The notes beneath the pieces were generated by a model. The model was not told the origin of the DNA and did not search any database. It saw nothing but the letters and a program-made list of their open reading frames with translations. Shown in pieces: positions 3,142 through 6,562 of a DNA stretch of 7,415 bases (position 1 is its first letter; each line of letters starts with the position of its first letter). This DNA comes from Promethearchaeota archaeon (lineage in GTDB: Archaea; Asgardarchaeota; Odinarchaeia; Odinarchaeales; JBHLKK01). Both the position numbers and the translations under genes were made by a program. Location: NCBI GenBank assembly GCA_048939465.1, contig JBHLPL010000096.1, positions 1 to 7,415 on the forward strand. The letters are read 5' to 3'.

Positions 3142-3149
3142 GGAGCAAA

Positions 3150-3155
3150 CCCTCC
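3150..3155 (-). promoter_or_regulatory. Shine-Dalgarno site of the flavodoxin-like gene
   Basis: GGAGGG 8 nt upstream of the TTG start at 3141. Confidence 0.6.
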
Positions 3156-3190
3156 ATAGTTATTACAACGAGGATATCAAATTCCCCTTG

Positions 3191-3205
3191 TTTTAAATGC
3201 TTCGG
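3191..3205 (-). promoter_or_regulatory. Putative archaeal BRE-TATA promoter for the flavodoxin-like gene
   Basis: Minus strand reads CCGAAG-C-ATTTAAAA. This would put the start site near 3165-3170, just upstream of the SD. Confidence 0.45.
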
Positions 3206-3317
3206 TTGTTTTCAGGAACCCCACGTTTTCTTTGGATGAATATTCACAGAGTAATAATCACGTATTAGTCAATGATAAGAAGAATCCAACACGACATCAT
3301 TATTGAGGTATGCTTCT

Positions 3318-3509
3318 ATGATAACGTTAACAAAGAAGGAGATATTAGAATTCCTGAAGAATACAAAGAACAACTTCTCGAAACTTCCGAAGGAAATTAG
3401 AGAATCTCTGATTAGCAATATGATTCAATGTACAACACAAGCCATAAATGAAGTTATCAGGAAAAGGCTAGTCAAAATAGAAGAGGTGCTAGTGGGCGCA
3501 GCCGGATAG
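3318..3509 (+). CDS. Small basic helical hypothetical protein (63 aa)
   Basis: GAGGT at 3305-3309 lies 8 nt before the in-frame ATG 3318, favouring it over the TTG at 3303. The sequence MITLTKKEILEFLKNTKNNFSKLPKEIRESLISNMIQCTTQAINEVIRKRLVKIEEVLVGAAG has amphipathic helical periodicity. A hairpin and T tract follow. Confidence 0.6.
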   Translation: MITLTKKEILEFLKNTKNNFSKLPKEIRESLISNMIQCTTQAINEVIRKRLVKIEEVLVGAAG

Positions 3510-3515
3510 ACATCT

Positions 3516-3560
3516 GTGGTTTTGAGACCACCCACACTCCTTTATTCTTGTTGTTTTTTC
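3516..3560 (+). terminator. Putative terminator of the small ORF
   Basis: Short hairpin GTGGT-TTTGAG-ACCAC (3516-3531) followed by T-rich TTTATTCTTGTTGTTTTTTC (3541-3560). Confidence 0.4.
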
Positions 3561-3637
3561 ACTGAATTCACCAATTGGTATGTATCCATTTTAAATCCTT
3601 AGACGCCAATACAAAAACTACAGACGGGAGGGTGAAA

Positions 3638-3806
3638 ATGGCGATGCTCCTGAAAGGCCCTCCAGGGCATTAGGATATCTCAAGCAAAGCTTTTTGAGTC
3701 TTCTTTTCCTTCGGTTATCCTTGGAATTGGATACGATAATGATTTAAATGGTTCTGACGATATAACTACTAAGCTGGAGGAGGTCAAGGGAAAAGGGGAT
3801 TCTTAA
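3638..3806 (+). pseudogene. Possible frameshifted small ORF
   Basis: Strong SD GGAGGGTGA then ATG 3638 gives only MAMLLKGPPGH*. Removing one G from CCAGGG (3662-3667) joins it to an open frame ending at TAA 3804-3806, giving 55 aa. No recognisable domain. Confidence 0.2.
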
Positions 3807-4168
3807 CCCCCAGCATATCTAGGTAAACAGCTCACTCATGTTTGCGGGATAATGGATGAGTTGATTTAGCAGTAAACCACTCCTGCCTTGCAGAAGGAGC
3901 ATACTACCATGGTTGACCGCAATTCCCTTCCGAGCTTTGGTTTCATCACGCGTCAAACCAGAGGTGGGTTTACAGCGCCCCAGTCTAGCAATCCGCGTAC
4001 AGCGTCAGCCTACTGGGTTTATTCCATCCATCCTCCCCGCAGGTCATTAACCGTTTCCACATTGAAGAGACCTATGCCTTTGGACCTTCGGAGGCTACCA
4101 CAGATTCATTCAAGAACCGCTCAATTTCTCTCCGCCCTTTCAGGCAGAGTCACCTTGAGGTGGTCTAG
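3791..4168 (-). ncRNA. Putative large structured RNA (~380 nt) of unassigned family
   Basis: Nested helices found by eye (plus coordinates): 3843-3848/4036-4041, 3851-3858/4025-4032, 3872-3878/3967-3973, 3910-3923/3945-3960, 3979-3984/4012-4017, 3880-3884/3895-3899, 4042-4045/4069-4072, 4130-4137/4142-4149. Minus-strand loops are GAAA, GGAA, GGAA, GCAA. Several G-U pairs on the minus strand would be A-C mismatches on plus. Confidence 0.7.
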
Positions 4169-4172
4169 ATGA
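4120..4172 (-). mobile_element. IS200/IS605-family left-end-like sequence (non-autonomous or relic) with TCAT/ATGA target motif
   Basis: Minus strand reads TCAT|CTAGACCACCTCAAG-GTGA-CTCTGCCT-GAAA-GGGCGGAG-AGAAATTGAG. This resembles the CAAGGAGACCCCGCCC-N4-GGGCGGGGAGGAATTG end hairpin I recognise from IS200/IS605 (IscB/TnpB) elements. The tetranucleotide at the hairpin foot sits at +16..+19 from TCAT, the same spacing as the IS608 left-end guide. No tnpA, tnpB or iscB ORF is nearby. Confidence 0.6.
4157..4162 (+). promoter_or_regulatory. Shine-Dalgarno site of the glycyl radical enzyme
   Basis: GAGGTG 6 nt upstream of ATG 4169. It lies inside the IS-end-like sequence. Confidence 0.6.
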
Positions 4173-6562
4173 GAAAAGATGCTAGGGATAAGAATTTTCC
4201 GTCAAGAATTGAACCTCTTAGAGAGAGAATGCTGAGAACCAAACCCAGCATAGGCGTCGAAAGAGCTAGATTGTATACAGAGTCAATGAAGCAGACCGAG
4301 ACAGAACCCATGGTGATAAGACAGGCTAAAGCCTTTGCACATATGATGGATAACATTCCCGTCACTATATTCCCGCAGGAGTTGATAGTGGGAACCATGG
4401 TTCGCAAACCCCCGGGAGCCATCGTATTTCCCGAGGGTGTAGGTCTGAGAGCTTTTCCAGAGCTAGACGACATCGGGGACCGTGACGTGAATCCGTTTGA
4501 AGTTTCGGATGAGGAACTAAGGATTCTGAAGGATGAAATAGAACCCTACTGGTCTACAAGATCAATACCGGAATATGCCGAGCACGTCACTCCAAGTAAG
4601 ATTATTGACCGGCTTTATGAAGGTGCTTTCTTCGTTCTCACTGAATTGGCAGGCATCTCACACGTTAGTATAAACTATCCGTATCTCATCTCGGTAGGAT
4701 TTGAGAAGATTAAGAATATGGCTAACAAGAGAATTGGTGAGTATGAGCAAGCCGAGAGAACAGATCCGGATTCAACAGACAAGAGTCTGTTCTACAGAAG
4801 CGCAGAGCTGGTCGCCGAAGGCGTGATAAGATTTGCCCAAAGATACTCCAGAAAGGCCAGAGAGCTCGCCAAAATGGAGAAAAAAGCGACTAGAAGGGAA
4901 GAATTGCTGAGAATCGCAGATAATTGCAAAAACGTTCCAGCCAAACCCCCTAAAACCTTTTACGAGGCACTTCAGTTCATATGGTTCGTTCAGCTCGCCC
5001 TGCATCAGGAGAACTACGAACAAGGGATCTCGATGGGGAGAATGGATCAATATCTATATGAATACTATAAGAGAGATTTGGAAGCAGGATTCTTGGATTT
5101 TGAGAAAGCTGTGGAACTTGTCTCGTGCTTATGGATAAAGACCTGTGAAATACTGCCACTTTTCGATTCCTTCCTAACTATGTATTTTAGTGGATTATTA
5201 ACCAACCAAGCGGTCACACTAAGCGGTGTTAATGAGAATGGCGAAGATGCAACAAATGAGCTAACGTATGTGATGATTGAGGCCAATAGGAGAGTTGCCT
5301 TACGACAGCCGAACGTTCATGTAAGGCTTCACAGGAAGAGCCCGGACAAGCTTTGGAATCTGCTAACAGAGATAGTAGCAAGCGGTACAAACAATATAGC
5401 GCTGTTCAACGATGATGTCGTTATCGAGGCACTATCACGGAAAGGTATTCCACTAAGGGATGCCAAGGATTATGCAACCGTAGGTTGTGTTGAGCTTGCT
5501 CCCTTTGGAAAAGCATTCACTTCTTCGGACGCAGCTCTCTTTAATCTGCCCACCTGTTTGGATCTGGCACTGAACAACGGCGTTAGTACTGCTTCTGGTG
5601 AATTGGTAGGAGTGCAGACAGGGGATTCTGCGGACTTCAAGTCCATAAATGATGTGCTGACTTCGTTCAGGAGTCAGCTCTCATATCTCATCAAAGAGAT
5701 GATTATCGGGTCGAATTCCTTTGAAATCGCAAACCGGGACCTCAAGCCAACACCATTCCTTTCCCTTTGTGTCGAGGGTTGTTTTGAGAAAGGCAAGGAT
5801 ATCACAACAGGATCCGCAACCTATAATTTCACCGGTGTTCAAGGCGTGGGGCTTGCTGATGTGGCTGACTCTTTGGCTGCACTGGATCGAGTGGTATTTG
5901 CAAATGGAAAGGTAAGTATGGGCGAACTTACGGAGGCCCTGAGAAACAATTTTGAAGGAGACGGAGATTTGAGACAGCTGCTCATTAACAAATCCCCGAA
6001 ATATGGCAACGATAACGATATTGCTGATAAATATGCAGAACTTGTGGCAAGAATGTACAGCGAGGAGATAGGGAAATACAGGAATGTGAGAGATGGGGAC
6101 TTCACGCCCGGCATATACTCACTATCTACTCAAATTGGATTGGGGTTCCAGACATCAGCGCTTCCAAGCGGCAGAAAGCATGGTGAGCCCCTCAGCAACG
6201 GTATTTCGCCCTGCATAGGGTCAGAGAGAAAGGGAGTAACAGCGGCCATGAGATCTGTAACGAAGATCGATCATGCTCTTTTTCCAAATGGAGTTTCTTA
6301 CACAGTGACACTGTCGCCGACTCTTTTTGAGGGGGGGCAGGGCTTGAATAACCTGAAAGCTCTGATTAAGACCTATATGGAACTCGGCGGTATGCATATT
6401 CATTTTAACATAGTTAATGTAAAAGAGCTTCTGGACGCGCAGAAGAATCCTGAGAGGTATAGACATCTGATGGTAAGAGTGGGGGGATTCAGCGCCTACT
6501 TCGTGGATCTCACCAGAGAGATGCAGAATGAAATAATTAGCAAGTGTCTTGAGGACCTCTAA
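4169..6562 (+). CDS. Glycyl radical enzyme, PFL2/PflD-like (probable eliminase/dehydratase class, substrate unknown)
   Basis: 797 aa. N-terminal RIEPLRERML..KPSIGVERA and IFPQELIVG motifs, Cys loop GCVE (Cys440 at 5486-5488, Glu442), Gly loop LMVRVGGFSAYFVDL (radical Gly773 at 6485-6487). It lacks the adjacent Cys-Cys of true pyruvate formate-lyase. Confidence 0.95.
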   Translation: MRKDARDKNFPSRIEPLRERMLRTKPSIGVERARLYTESMKQTETEPMVIRQAKAFAHMMDNIPVTIFPQELIVGTMVRKPPGAIVFPEGVGLRAFPELDDIGDRDVNPFEVSDEELRILKDEIEPYWSTRSIPEYAEHVTPSKIIDRLYEGAFFVLTELAGISHVSINYPYLISVGFEKIKNMANKRIGEYEQAERTDPDSTDKSLFYRSAELVAEGVIRFAQRYSRKARELAKMEKKATRREELLRIADNCKNVPAKPPKTFYEALQFIWFVQLALHQENYEQGISMGRMDQYLYEYYKRDLEAGFLDFEKAVELVSCLWIKTCEILPLFDSFLTMYFSGLLTNQAVTLSGVNENGEDATNELTYVMIEANRRVALRQPNVHVRLHRKSPDKLWNLLTEIVASGTNNIALFNDDVVIEALSRKGIPLRDAKDYATVGCVELAPFGKAFTSSDAALFNLPTCLDLALNNGVSTASGELVGVQTGDSADFKSINDVLTSFRSQLSYLIKEMIIGSNSFEIANRDLKPTPFLSLCVEGCFEKGKDITTGSATYNFTGVQGVGLADVADSLAALDRVVFANGKVSMGELTEALRNNFEGDGDLRQLLINKSPKYGNDNDIADKYAELVARMYSEEIGKYRNVRDGDFTPGIYSLSTQIGLGFQTSALPSGRKHGEPLSNGISPCIGSERKGVTAAMRSVTKIDHALFPNGVSYTVTLSPTLFEGGQGLNNLKALIKTYMELGGMHIHFNIVNVKELLDAQKNPERYRHLMVRVGGFSAYFVDLTREMQNEIISKCLEDL

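What the first reader, a model, noticed from the sequence alone, without database searches (positions are those of the whole stretch)
3791..4168. Large, strand-specific structured RNA of no recognisable family upstream of and antisense-oriented to the GRE operon
Seen (minus strand, 5' to 3'): hairpin CUCUGCCU-GAAA-GGGCGGAG, then stem GGUC/GACC capped by UGU-GGAA-ACG. A roughly 200-nt domain follows, closed by UGCGGG/CCCGCA and GAUGGAUG/CAUCCAUU. It contains arm CCCAGU/ACUGGG and a junction closed by GUAAACC/GGUUUAC, which holds a long arm (UGGUUUGAC..CGUGAU/AUUGCG.GUCAACCA with a CUC-GGAA-GGG tip) and a CUCCU..GCAA..AGGAG arm. Then come AAACA/UGUUU, a final GGGGGUU-AAG-AAUCCCC hairpin and UUUU. 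Four GNRA tetraloops and at least six G-U pairs all favour the minus strand, which argues for selection on RNA structure. I could not match it to SRP, RNase P, common riboswitches or IscB/IsrB omega-RNA consensus. Inference: a candidate new large ncRNA class carried by, or derived from, an IS200/IS605-type element, possibly a ribozyme, a trans-acting guide scaffold or a domesticated regulator.
Basis: partly seen in the sequence, partly recalled or inferred. Interest (0 to 1): 0.85.

Follow-up and report, generated by a model that had tools for sequence, protein, structure and literature searches.

The report
Gene-less transposon carrying a guide-RNA scaffold
The "new structured RNA" is one of about 18 copies of a 297-base, gene-less IS200/IS605-type mobile element in an Asgard archaeon that has kept the guide-RNA (omega RNA) scaffold of the TnpB nuclease: a known kind of element, with one unexplained extra feature.

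Summary
The structure is real and strand-specific, and it matches no Rfam family. It is not a new RNA class.

**What it is.** Window 4168-3872 (minus strand) is a 297-nt element without an ORF. It has at least 18 full copies in this genome. More copies occur in same-genus genomes and in Borrarchaeum-type Asgard MAGs.

**Evidence for a mobile element.**
- Two orthologous empty sites show precise insertion after TCAT with no target duplication.
- A 1246-nt parent IS carries a 380-aa TnpB. It shares the left end, an internal block and the last ~155 nt with this element.

**Evidence for an omega-RNA scaffold.** The 3' ~116 nt reproduce omega-RNA architecture:
- a stem whose loop (GUAAAC) pairs with the terminal GUUUAC as a pseudoknot;
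- a long arm;
- the right-end hairpin.

Across 34 copies, 93% of cells at 42 pairs are canonical, against 80% on the other strand. Twenty-one pairs show compensatory changes.

**Conclusion.** This is a palindrome-associated transposable element (PATE) carrying an orphan TnpB omega RNA. Its position next to the GRE operon is incidental. The left end happens to supply the GRE Shine-Dalgarno sequence.

**Unexplained.** A hypervariable internal segment is complementary to each copy's own 3' flank.

First-stage notes had already read other copies in this genome the same way. No expression data were available.

The parts
4169..4172 (-). Target / transposon-adjacent motif TCAT, immediately 5' of the element. 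Its complement holds the GRE start codon ATG (4169-4171, plus strand).
   Evidence: Two empty-versus-filled orthologous sites place the insertion directly after TCAT with no duplication. By my count from the flank listing, about 16 of 26 Hod-lineage copies keep TCAT.
3872..4168 (-). The whole 297-nt non-autonomous IS200/IS605 (IS1341-type) element, a PATE with no ORF.
   Evidence: There are 15 copies at 67-79% identity plus 3 more diverged ones in the own genome. It is not coding: no 3-base periodicity, and stop codons in nearly every frame of every copy. Boundaries come from the empty sites.
4150..4168 (-). 19-nt left-end spacer (CTAGACCACCTCAAGGTGA). Its complement gives GAGGTG (4157-4162, plus strand), a 6-nt spacer and the GRE ATG, so it acts as a Shine-Dalgarno for the displaced gene.
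   Evidence: Read from the sequence. The block CACCTC is conserved at 0.84 pairwise identity. In 10 of 26 Hod-lineage copies (9 of 25 sites), the ATG complementary to TCAT opens an ORF of more than 150 aa.
4130..4149 (-). Left-end subterminal hairpin CUCUGCCU-GAAA-GGGCGGAG. This is the presumed TnpA recognition hairpin. It probably acts as DNA and lies upstream of the likely RNA start.
   Evidence: Of 6 pairs, 88% of cells are canonical and 3 pairs show double changes. It is homologous to the left end of the full-length IS.
4106..4114 (-). Degenerate copy (CTTGAATGA) of the conserved TTAAATA box, a candidate archaeal TATA element inherited from the tnpB promoter.
   Evidence: TTAAATA is kept in the Hod copies, the Borr-type copies and the parent IS. 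In the parent IS it lies about 22 nt before the tnpB ATG. Promoter function is inferred.
4042..4086 (-). Most conserved block (GGTCCAAAGGCA ... GTGGAAACGGTTAATGACC), derived from an internal tnpB coding segment.
   Evidence: It gives a weak nhmmer match (E = 1.4e-4) to the codons ..QAKGTPAS..GRWKRFMTW of the parent tnpB. Pairwise identity is 0.78-0.89.
4021..4041 (-). Hypervariable segment ('var', UGCGGGGAGGAUGGAUGGAAU).
   Evidence: Pairwise identity is 0.32-0.46 against about 0.8 elsewhere. It is complementary to its own copy's 3' flank.
3961..3981 (-). Stem 1 (GGGGCG/CCACCUC in this copy). Its loop holds GUAAAC (3973-3968), the 5' strand of the pseudoknot.
   Evidence: Of 5 pairs, 95% of cells are canonical and 4 pairs show double changes. 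For the pseudoknot, 94% of cells are canonical against 3-46% in slid controls. The geometry matches ISDra2 (PMC10097598).
3907..3960 (-). Long arm (stems 2/3) with a CUC-GGAA-GGG tip.
   Evidence: Of 13 pairs, 93% of cells are canonical and 8 pairs show double changes.
3880..3899 (-). Right-end subterminal hairpin CUCCUUCU-GCAA-GGCAGGAG. It corresponds to omega-RNA stem 4 and to the TnpA right-end hairpin.
   Evidence: Of 8 pairs, 95% of cells are canonical and 3 pairs show double changes. It is homologous to the right end of the TnpB-bearing IS.
3872..3877 (-). Terminal GUUUAC. It is the transposon-encoded motif and the 3' strand of the pseudoknot. The element ends at 3872.
   Evidence: It is almost invariant in all lineages. 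The empty sites fix the boundary.
3852..3871 (-). First 20 nt outside the right end. This would be the guide of a read-through omega RNA.
   Evidence: Inferred by analogy with TnpB systems (PMC10097598, PMC10055086). No transcript data exist.
3843..3860 (-). Flank segment CUCAUCCAUUAUCCCGCA, which pairs with var (16 pairs, -25.0 kcal/mol).
   Evidence: None of the non-cognate flanks reached this energy with this var.
3823..3869 (-). Probable degenerate 47-nt 'terminal-only' mini-PATE relic, two bases after the right end.
   Evidence: It matches 28 of 47 ungapped positions of the left-spacer + hairpin + right-end consensus. Genome-wide, 76 of 3.9 million windows reach 28 or more, and those listed (score 31 or more) are left ends of copies or mini-PATEs.
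3791..3811 (-). Hairpin GGGGGUU-AAG-AAUCCCC plus UUUU, in unique flank DNA. It is a possible 3' end of a read-through transcript.
   Evidence: It is present in the sequence. This flank is unique in the genome, so it has no comparative support.
4169..6562 (+). Glycyl radical enzyme gene. The insertion has lengthened its 5' leader by 297 nt.
   Evidence: Pfam PFL-like plus Gly_radical. The G001 orthologue aligns from residue 1, and its contig breaks 3 nt upstream of the ATG.

Best explanation
Window 4168-3872 (minus strand = transposon top strand) is a non-autonomous IS200/IS605-family element. It is a PATE made by internal deletions of an IS1341-type, TnpB-only insertion sequence.

At the DNA level (inferred), its two similar subterminal hairpins and its ends let a Y1 TnpA supplied in trans cut it out. 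TnpA then pastes it as single-stranded DNA immediately 3' of TCAT, without target duplication.

At the RNA level (inferred), the retained tnpB promoter would drive a transcript of about 210 nt that starts near 4085. This transcript would fold into the TnpB omega-RNA scaffold:
- stem 1, whose loop forms a pseudoknot with the terminal GUUUAC;
- the long arm;
- the right-end hairpin.

The transcript would read out into the flank, which would serve as its guide. TnpB made by full-length copies elsewhere in the genome would use it in trans to cut the vacated TCAT + flank site and so favour retention of the element.

Insertion here happened at the TCAT that is the complement of the GRE start codon. 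The left end supplies a replacement Shine-Dalgarno, so the insertion is tolerated.

Shown: mobility signature, parentage, lack of coding, covarying structure and strand.
Inferred: transcription, use by TnpB and current activity.
For: Multicopy and non-coding:
- At least 18 full copies in the own genome, with no codon periodicity.

Precise presence or absence at two orthologous loci:
- At aclA-icd, the element is present in G000 and G001 and absent in G002.
- At a second locus it is present in G002 and absent in G001 and G000.
- The junction reads TTCAT|element...GTTTAC|flank, with no duplication.

Parent IS:
- Contigs C70 and C55 overlap by exactly 77 nt to give a 1246-nt IS.
- An intact copy exists in G001 with a 380-aa TnpB. 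This protein matches Pfam OrfB_IS605 and Cas12f1-like TNB, and PDB Cas12f/TnpB chains at E down to 8e-20.
- Element positions 1-78 match the IS left end (E = 8e-11). Positions 155-302 match the tnpB 3' end plus right end (E = 3e-22).
- A deletion intermediate that still holds a TnpB remnant lies on C5.

Structure:
- 42 pairs are 93% canonical, against 80% on the other strand.
- G-U cells number 227 and A-C cells 41.
- 21 pairs have double changes, against 6-15 in slid controls.
- The pseudoknot partners lie at -102..-97 and -6..-1. In ISDra2 they lie at -105..-103 and -5..-3 (PMC10097598).
- Archaeal omega RNAs are described with a loop-TEM pseudoknot and a right-end hairpin (PMC12558985).

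Constraint:
- The G000/G001 orthologous copies are 86% identical. The 161 four-fold degenerate sites of the adjacent icd are 61% identical.

Other:
- A Y1 TnpA gene is present in the genome.
- The literature states that PATEs often encode omega RNAs used in trans (PMC10055086). Archaeal PATEs arise by core deletion of IS1341-type elements (PMC3119063).
Against: - No transcript data: no RNA run was listed, so the RNA start, the RNA end and expression itself are all untested.
- The TATA-like box is degenerate in this copy (CTTGAATGA against TTAAATA).
- All non-orthologous copies differ by at least 9%. Transposition is therefore old, and current activity is doubtful.
- The pseudoknot letters are almost invariant, so covariation hardly tests the pseudoknot.
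- The conserved mid block and the hypervariable segment have no counterpart in described omega RNAs. The simple homing model does not explain them.
- If the hypervariable segment pairs with the flank in the RNA, it would mask part of the presumed guide.
Confidence: 0.78

Rival explanations
1. Domesticated element. The copies are no longer mobile parasites. The host keeps them for a function at their present sites. One option is a structured spacer that supplies the ribosome-binding site and preserves expression of the downstream gene. Another is a set of guide RNAs for a TnpB-derived regulator.
For: - Orthologous copies are 86% identical, against 61% at neutral-proxy sites.
- 10 of 26 Hod-lineage copies abut a start codon opening more than 150 aa. 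Ten of 26 follow a long upstream frame that ends at the TAA inside GTAAAC. These copies supply GAGGTG plus a 6-nt spacer.
- No copy is younger than about 9% divergence.
- Only one TnpA gene was found in the genome.
Against: - G-U pairs favour the strand antisense to the neighbouring genes, so the conserved helices are not selected in the mRNA.
- Neighbouring genes are unrelated in function.
- Presence and absence vary among same-genus genomes.
- The TnpB of the parent IS appears to keep its RuvC and zinc-finger motifs, on my reading of the translation. It therefore does not look like a dead-nuclease repressor.
- Survivorship of copies that resist loss could mimic purifying selection.
Confidence: 0.12
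2. Purely DNA-level parasite. Only the two end hairpins matter, for TnpA. The internal RNA-like structure is an inherited relic with no present function.
For: - The end hairpins are a defining feature of IS200/IS605 elements.
- 47-nt terminal-only versions are abundant in this genome, so the interior is dispensable for persistence.
- No expression data exist.
Against: - Interior helices (stem 1, long arm) carry 12 pairs with compensatory changes and 93-95% canonical cells.
- The same deletion architecture is conserved between distant Asgard lineages.
- Interior identity of about 0.8 equals or exceeds that of the ends.
Confidence: 0.08
3. A new stand-alone structured ncRNA or ribozyme class that is unrelated in function to TnpB.
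For: - No Rfam match.
- Large size, GNRA loops and strong strand asymmetry.
- A conserved mid block and a variable segment that are not described for omega RNAs.
Against: - Direct sequence homology to the tnpB 3' end and right end of a full-length IS.
- Omega-RNA-like stem and pseudoknot layout.
- A transposon insertion signature.
- No ribozyme family motif was found.
Confidence: 0.03
4. A plus-strand feature of the GRE operon. This could be a 5' leader or riboswitch, or the 94-aa ORF at 3888-4172.
For: - It lies directly upstream of the GRE ATG.
- An ORF of 85-124 aa is open on that strand in about 7 of 15 copies.
Against: - No 3-base periodicity (power at period 3 is far below the mean). Stop codons occur in nearly every frame of every copy. 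Indels are not multiples of three.
- The ORF has no Pfam family.
- The plus strand folds worse, individually and as an alignment: -23.7 against -39.9 kcal/mol.
- The same element precedes unrelated genes and is absent from orthologous sites.
Confidence: 0.01

Closest known systems
TnpB omega RNA (reRNA) of IS200/IS605 elements, e.g. ISDra2 (Nakagawa et al. 2023, PMC10097598); archaeal sotRNAs/omega RNAs (PMC4615843, PMC12558985)
   Same: - It derives from the tnpB 3' end and the right end, on the tnpB strand.
- The scaffold is about 116 nt. A 5' hairpin loop pairs with the last bases before the guide to form a pseudoknot, with partners about 100 nt apart.
- It has a long middle arm, and a right-end hairpin with a tetraloop near -19..-16.
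- The guide would be the flank.
   Different: - No tnpB lies in cis.
- The RNA would carry about 95 extra 5' nucleotides (a tnpB-internal block plus a hypervariable segment) that are not described for omega RNAs.
- It has no detectable sequence similarity to any Rfam model.
- RNA production and TnpB binding are untested.
Palindrome-associated transposable elements (PATEs) of haloarchaea (Dyall-Smith et al. 2011, PMC3119063) and of Geobacillus (Meers et al. 2023, PMC10055086)
   Same: - It has no ORF and no terminal inverted repeats.
- It has near-terminal palindromes similar at both ends, and makes no target duplication.
- It arises by core deletion of IS1341-type elements.
- Terminal-only mini versions (47 nt here, 52 bp there) coexist with it.
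- PATEs are stated often to encode omega RNAs used in trans.
   Different: - The host is an Asgard archaeon.
- The same three-piece deletion architecture is conserved across distant lineages.
- Hod-lineage copies sit preferentially on the complement of start codons and bring a Shine-Dalgarno.
- The interior contains a segment matched to the flank.
IS110 bridge RNAs / TnpA DNA guide tetranucleotides of IS608
   Same: An element-encoded segment is complementary to DNA next to the insertion point.
   Different: - There is no IS110 recombinase.
- Complementarity is to the 3' side of the insertion point, 10-22 pairs long and imperfect, and present in only about half of the copies.
- No evidence shows that it directs integration.
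IscB/IsrB omega RNA (HEARO)
   Same: It is a large structured guide scaffold of an IS200/IS605 relative.
   Different: - No HEARO hit even at E<=10.
- The scaffold sits at the right end rather than the left end.
- The parent gene is tnpB.

Membership tests
IS200/IS605-family non-autonomous element (PATE) | Subterminal imperfect palindromes at both ends, in direct orientation, with no terminal inverted repeats | tested here: met
   The left-end hairpin is at 4149-4130 and the right-end hairpin at 3899-3880. Their sequences are similar (CUCYGYCY-GAAA-GGGCGGAG and CUCCUUCU-GCAA-GGSAGGAG). Both are conserved and covary.
IS200/IS605-family non-autonomous element (PATE) | Insertion 3' of a short specific target, without target-site duplication | tested here: met
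   Two orthologous pairs of empty and filled sites read TTCAT|element|flank. The Borr-type lineage uses TCAC instead. The fourth base 5' of its left-end hairpin changes with it, from GAGA to GAAG.
IS200/IS605-family non-autonomous element (PATE) | Too short to encode a transposase, and not protein-coding | tested here: met
   It is 297 nt long. Stop codons occur in nearly every frame of every copy, and there is no codon periodicity.
IS200/IS605-family non-autonomous element (PATE) | Ends homologous to those of a transposase- or TnpB-bearing IS | tested here: met
   nhmmer against the reconstructed 1246-nt IS gives E = 8e-11 for the left end and E = 3e-22 for the right end. An intact IS is present in G001.
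IS200/IS605-family non-autonomous element (PATE) | Mobilised in trans by a Y1 TnpA | not testable with these tools
   One Y1_Tnp gene is present on contig C105.
TnpB omega RNA | Encoded across the tnpB 3' end and the right end, on the tnpB strand | tested here: met
   Element positions 155-302 align to the parent tnpB, from the codons ..ARNIAQRYTRITGLG.. to the right end.
TnpB omega RNA | Pseudoknot between a 5' hairpin loop and the bases just before the guide | tested here: inconclusive
   GUAAAC (-102..-97) and GUUUAC (-6..-1) are complementary in 94% of cells, against 3-46% in slid controls. Both are almost invariant, and only 1 pair has a double change. The spacing matches ISDra2 (PMC10097598).
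TnpB omega RNA | Conserved stems supported by covariation on the tnpB strand | tested here: met
   In stem 1, the long arm and the right-end hairpin, 26 pairs are 93-95% canonical and 15 pairs have double changes. G-U cells outnumber A-C cells 227 to 41.
TnpB omega RNA | Transcribed, with a 3' guide read from the flank | not testable with these tools
   No RNA run was listed for this organism.
TnpB omega RNA | Bound by TnpB and directs TAM-dependent DNA cleavage | not testable with these tools
   TnpB genes that appear intact exist in the genome.
Any Rfam 15 family (including HEARO, riboswitches, RNase P, SRP, ribozymes) | Covariance-model match | tested here: not met
   There were no matches at gathering score over the whole window. 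At E<=10 over 3400-4500, only two chance-level hits appeared, to bxd_4 and sR14.
Archaeal bulge-helix-bulge processing stem | Two 3-nt bulges on opposite strands, separated by a 4-bp helix, in the var-flank duplex | tested here: not met
   The predicted duplexes have 1-3-nt internal loops without BHB geometry. This rests on inspection by eye only.

The most novel reading that the evidence does not exclude
The hypervariable 20-35-nt segment inside the element may be a site-matched 'address' kept complementary to the DNA or RNA just outside that copy's right end. That stretch overlaps the presumed omega-RNA guide.

If so, it could do one of three things:
- act as an anti-guide or closing helix that masks the guide, or defines the ends of, or circularises, orphan omega RNAs;
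- act as a DNA-level guide that steers an excised single-stranded circle back to its own vacated site;
- alternatively, it may simply be the neutral product of templated (quasi-palindrome) mutation.

Any selected function would be a new layer in IS200/IS605-TnpB biology.
Probability: 0.3. Interest if true: 0.7.

Novelty: new member of a known kind. Interest (0 to 1): 0.4.

Why it matters
- It removes a false lead. The structure is not a new RNA class and has no regulatory tie to the glycyl radical enzyme operon.
- It documents a TnpB/omega-RNA PATE family spread across Asgard archaea (Hodarchaeota-type, Borrarchaeum-type and Hermodarchaeota MAGs).
- The copies stay conserved well above neutral expectation.
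- The family shows how an element can live on the complement of start codons by bringing its own ribosome-binding site.
- The flank-matched hypervariable segment, if functional, would be of real interest to people working on OMEGA systems and compact RNA-guided nucleases.
- For annotators, these repeats break assemblies. They also create spurious ORFs of about 90 aa.

Tried and rejected
- **Rfam.** Searches at gathering score and at E<=10 found nothing.
- **Coding reading of the plus-strand 94-aa ORF.** Rejected.
- **Plus-strand leader or riboswitch.** Rejected.
- **tRNA or tmRNA.** None found.
- **IS200/IS605 genes inside the window.** None found. The neighbours are a flavodoxin and an FtsX/MacB-type permease.
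- **Expression.** No RNA holder was listed in either search of public runs.
- **Orthologous GRE locus in G001.** The contig ends 3 nt before the ATG, so no comparison of empty and filled sites was possible for this copy. The gene was not found in G002 with this query.
- **Metagenome scan for more Hod-type copies.** Only Borr-type copies were returned.
- **Canonical bulge-helix-bulge geometry in the var-flank duplex.** Not seen.
- **"The flank is part of the element".** Rejected for two loci, where the same flank is present at empty sites. For the window copy, however, the flank seems to hold a degenerate 47-nt mini-PATE.
- **SD/anti-SD composition as the sole cause of var-flank pairing.** Insufficient, because cognate pairs beat non-cognate ones.
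- **Covariance model.** Not built. At 300 columns, calibration would probably exceed the limit.
- **aclA four-fold-site estimate.** Failed on a frame error and was dropped.
- **Literature search for 'TnpB' plus 'anti-guide'.** No papers found.
Full report
**Observation**

The minus strand folds at -132.4 kcal/mol with z = -2.73, and no shuffle of 100 did as well. The plus strand gives z = -1.36. Rfam 15 gave no match at gathering score over the whole window. At E<=10 over 3400-4500 it gave only two chance-level hits. So the description and the "no known family" statement both hold.

**Surroundings**

The window is a whole contig of a 1.96-Mb, 43% GC genome. Its genes are:
- a glycyl radical enzyme (4169-6562, plus strand) and its activase;
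- a flavodoxin;
- an FtsX/MacB-type permease (both minus strand).

No transposase or nuclease gene is present. Earlier notes on this genome, and the organism names of matching public MAGs, place it among the Asgard archaea. The same-genus genome G001 is the MAG "Candidatus Hodarchaeota archaeon DZ1B.307".

**It is a repeat**

The first ~300 nt of the interval recur in the own genome. There are 15 copies at 67-79% identity, 3 more diverged full copies, and fragments.
- Conservation starts exactly at 4168, one base after the GRE ATG, and stops at 3872 after GGUUUAC.
- The copies are not coding. There is no three-base periodicity, stop codons occur in nearly every frame of every copy, and indels are not multiples of three.
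- The 94-aa plus-strand ORF (3888-4172) is therefore spurious.

**It is mobile DNA of the IS200/IS605 type**

Two orthologous comparisons give empty sites.
- At the aclA-icd junction, G000 and G001 carry the element and G002 does not.
- At a second locus, G002 carries it and both G001 and G000 are empty. The sequences read ...TTCAT|ATTAC... against ...TTCAT|C...GTTTAC|ATTAC....

Insertion is therefore precise, lies 3' of TCAT and makes no duplication. The ends carry two similar hairpins in direct orientation, 19 nt from the left end and 8 nt from the right end. A Borr-type lineage uses TCAC instead. In that lineage the four bases before the left hairpin change from GAGA to GAAG. From memory, this fits the base-pairing rule described for IS608 TnpA, and I did not check it here.

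**Parentage**

Several lines tie the element to a full-length IS.
- nhmmer with the copy profile hits the DNA just downstream of a TnpB zinc-ribbon on contig C55, and a left end followed by tnpB on C70.
- These two contigs overlap by exactly 77 nt and give one 1246-nt IS1341-type element.
- An intact copy with a 380-aa TnpB is in G001. That protein matches Pfam OrfB_IS605 and Cas12f1-like TNB, and PDB Cas12f/TnpB chains at E down to 8e-20.
- Element positions 1-78 equal the IS left end, through a TTAAATA box about 22 nt before the tnpB ATG.
- Positions ~90-135 resemble an internal tnpB segment.
- Positions 155-302 equal the last ~155 nt of the IS, beginning in the RuvC-III codons.
- Contig C5 holds a deletion intermediate.
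- One Y1 TnpA gene is present on C105.

This is what the literature calls a PATE. Archaeal PATEs arise by core deletion of IS1341-type elements (PMC3119063). PATEs "often encode omega RNAs" that TnpB must use in trans (PMC10055086).

**RNA structure**

I aligned 34 copies from G000, G001, G002 and the distant MAG G024 ("Promethearchaeota archaeon DZ3M.366").
- RNAalifold predicts 40 pairs, 20 of them with compensatory changes.
- My own count covers 42 pairs, including the GUAAAC/GUUUAC contact.
- G-U cells number 227 and A-C cells 41.
- Twenty-one pairs have double changes, against 6-15 when partners are slid.

The layout of the last ~116 nt is:
- a hairpin whose loop pairs with the last six bases (partners at -102..-97 and -6..-1);
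- a long arm;
- a terminal hairpin with a tetraloop.

In the ISDra2 omega RNA, -105..-103 pair with -5..-3, alongside stems 1-4 (PMC10097598). Archaeal omega RNAs are described with a pseudoknot between a hairpin loop and the transposon-encoded motif, plus a right-end hairpin (PMC12558985). The pseudoknot letters are nearly invariant here, so covariation cannot test that contact.

- "junction GUAAACC/GGUUUAC" is this pseudoknot;
- the "long arm" is stems 2/3;
- the "CUCCU..GCAA..AGGAG arm" is the right-end hairpin;
- the first hairpin is the left-end TnpA hairpin. It probably lies upstream of the RNA start, if the retained TATA-like box is used (inference).

**Distribution and constraint**

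- Full copies occur in G001, G002 and G024.
- They also occur in "Ca. Borrarchaeum yapensis" and in 15 metagenome contigs.
- A partial match occurs in "Ca. B. weybense".
- Matches limited to the 3' (omega-RNA) part occur in three further B. yapensis loci, in a Hermodarchaeota MAG and in G026. In G026 that part directly follows a long ORF.
- Single bacterial hits to the 17-base pattern are at the chance level I estimated, about 70.
- The G000/G001 orthologous copies are 86% identical, while 161 four-fold sites of the adjacent icd are 61% identical. The sequence is therefore constrained, or only constrained copies survive.

**Relation to host genes**

All flanking genes lie on the opposite strand.
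- In 10 of 26 Hod-lineage copies (9 of 25 sites), the ATG complementary to TCAT opens an ORF of more than 150 aa.
- In 10 of 26, a long upstream frame ends at the TAA inside GTAAAC.
- The complement of the left end reads GAGGTG, six bases, then ATG (4157-4171 here).

So the element supplies a Shine-Dalgarno to the gene it displaces, and the GRE is simply one such gene. The function of that Shine-Dalgarno is inferred.

**The unexplained part**

The segment between the mid block and the omega core (4041-4021) is hypervariable. Its pairwise identity is 0.32-0.46 against about 0.8 elsewhere. Nearest-neighbour copies that are 85-91% identical overall share only 30-67% there. Yet it is complementary to the DNA just beyond that copy's right end.

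- Hod lineage, 26 copies: cognate duplex energy averages -17.9 kcal/mol, against an all-pairs mean of -15.4. None of 20,000 permutations did as well. About ten copies are strongly specific.
- Borr-type lineage, 17 sites including metagenome copies: p = 0.0003.
- At two loci the partner is host coding DNA that is also present at empty sites.
- Each variable segment pairs at least as well with its own genome's flank as with an orthologue's, and better in three of five comparisons.
- Among the 12 strongest duplexes, pairs are mostly Watson-Crick (27 G-U of 215). The signal also exists on the other strand, more weakly (p = 0.002).
- The paired stretch usually starts at +1 to +15, so it overlaps the presumed guide.
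- No canonical bulge-helix-bulge was seen.

Possible readings are:
- a closing, processing or circularisation helix (circular archaeal omega RNAs exist, PMC12558985);
- an anti-guide;
- a DNA-level aid to re-integration;
- neutral templated mutation.

I cannot decide among these. In this particular copy the partner lies inside what looks like a degenerate 47-nt terminal-only mini-PATE (3869-3823, 28 of 47 matches). Such mini-elements are common in the genome.

**Verdict**

The interpretation as a new RNA class is not supported. This is a new Asgard member of a known kind, a PATE with an orphan TnpB omega-RNA scaffold. Other copies in this genome had already been read in the same way by first-stage notes, and I tested those readings here. 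Expression and use by TnpB remain untested.

Noticed in passing
G000 contigs C138:78807-78761, C69:17421-17467, C48:18923-18969, C25:4610-4656; second family e.g. C105:997-1043, C73:16331-16377, C23:2045-1999: There are abundant 47-nt 'terminal-only' mini-PATEs, made of a 19-nt left spacer, one hairpin and an 8-nt right end, in at least two sequence families. The second family ends in GTTCAC. They resemble the 52-bp core-deleted PATEs of Haloquadratum.
   Followed up: partly
window 3823-3869 (minus strand): A degenerate 47-nt mini-PATE relic (28 of 47 matches) lies two bases after the right end of the 297-nt element. This suggests repeated insertion at the same TCAT.
   Followed up: partly
G000 contigs C70 (1-1150) and C55 (5601-6043); G001 contig C17 end at 24998: The assembly breaks inside or at these repeats. 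C70 and C55 overlap by exactly 77 nt within one tnpB. The G001 contig that carries the GRE orthologue stops 3 nt before its ATG, where the element would begin.
   Followed up: yes
window 3888-4172 (plus strand): A 94-aa ORF overlaps the element and ends in ATGA with the GRE start. Similar ORFs of 85-124 aa are open in about 7 of 15 copies but are not conserved as protein. Gene callers are likely to produce them as artefacts.
   Followed up: yes
L009 = G000:C59, 25-30 nt beyond the right end of the copy at 1911-1616: A second, partial right end (half a hairpin plus TAGTTTAC) directly follows the element. It is a tandem right-end remnant.
   Followed up: no
G000:C139:2682-5569: Three copies of the element (one partial, one full, one diverged) lie within 3 kb. 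This is a local cluster of insertions.
   Followed up: no
own genome, about 40 sites: Many further hits match only the left ~80 nt of the element, for example on C137, C138, C141, C39 and C77. These are probably other PATE or IS families sharing the TnpA-recognised left end.
   Followed up: no
window 3142-3871: About 730 nt of ORF-poor DNA, unique in the genome, lies between the element and the divergent flavodoxin gene. No repeat, tRNA or Rfam match was found. It presumably holds the promoters of both operons.
   Followed up: partly
L028 (G002) and L173 (G001) empty sites: The native junctions are tightly coupled gene pairs (TGATGA and TAATATGAA). The element therefore splits operons between a stop codon and the next start codon, and must be read through in antisense by the host polymerase. 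Neither strand of the copies I read has a run of five or more T.
   Followed up: partly
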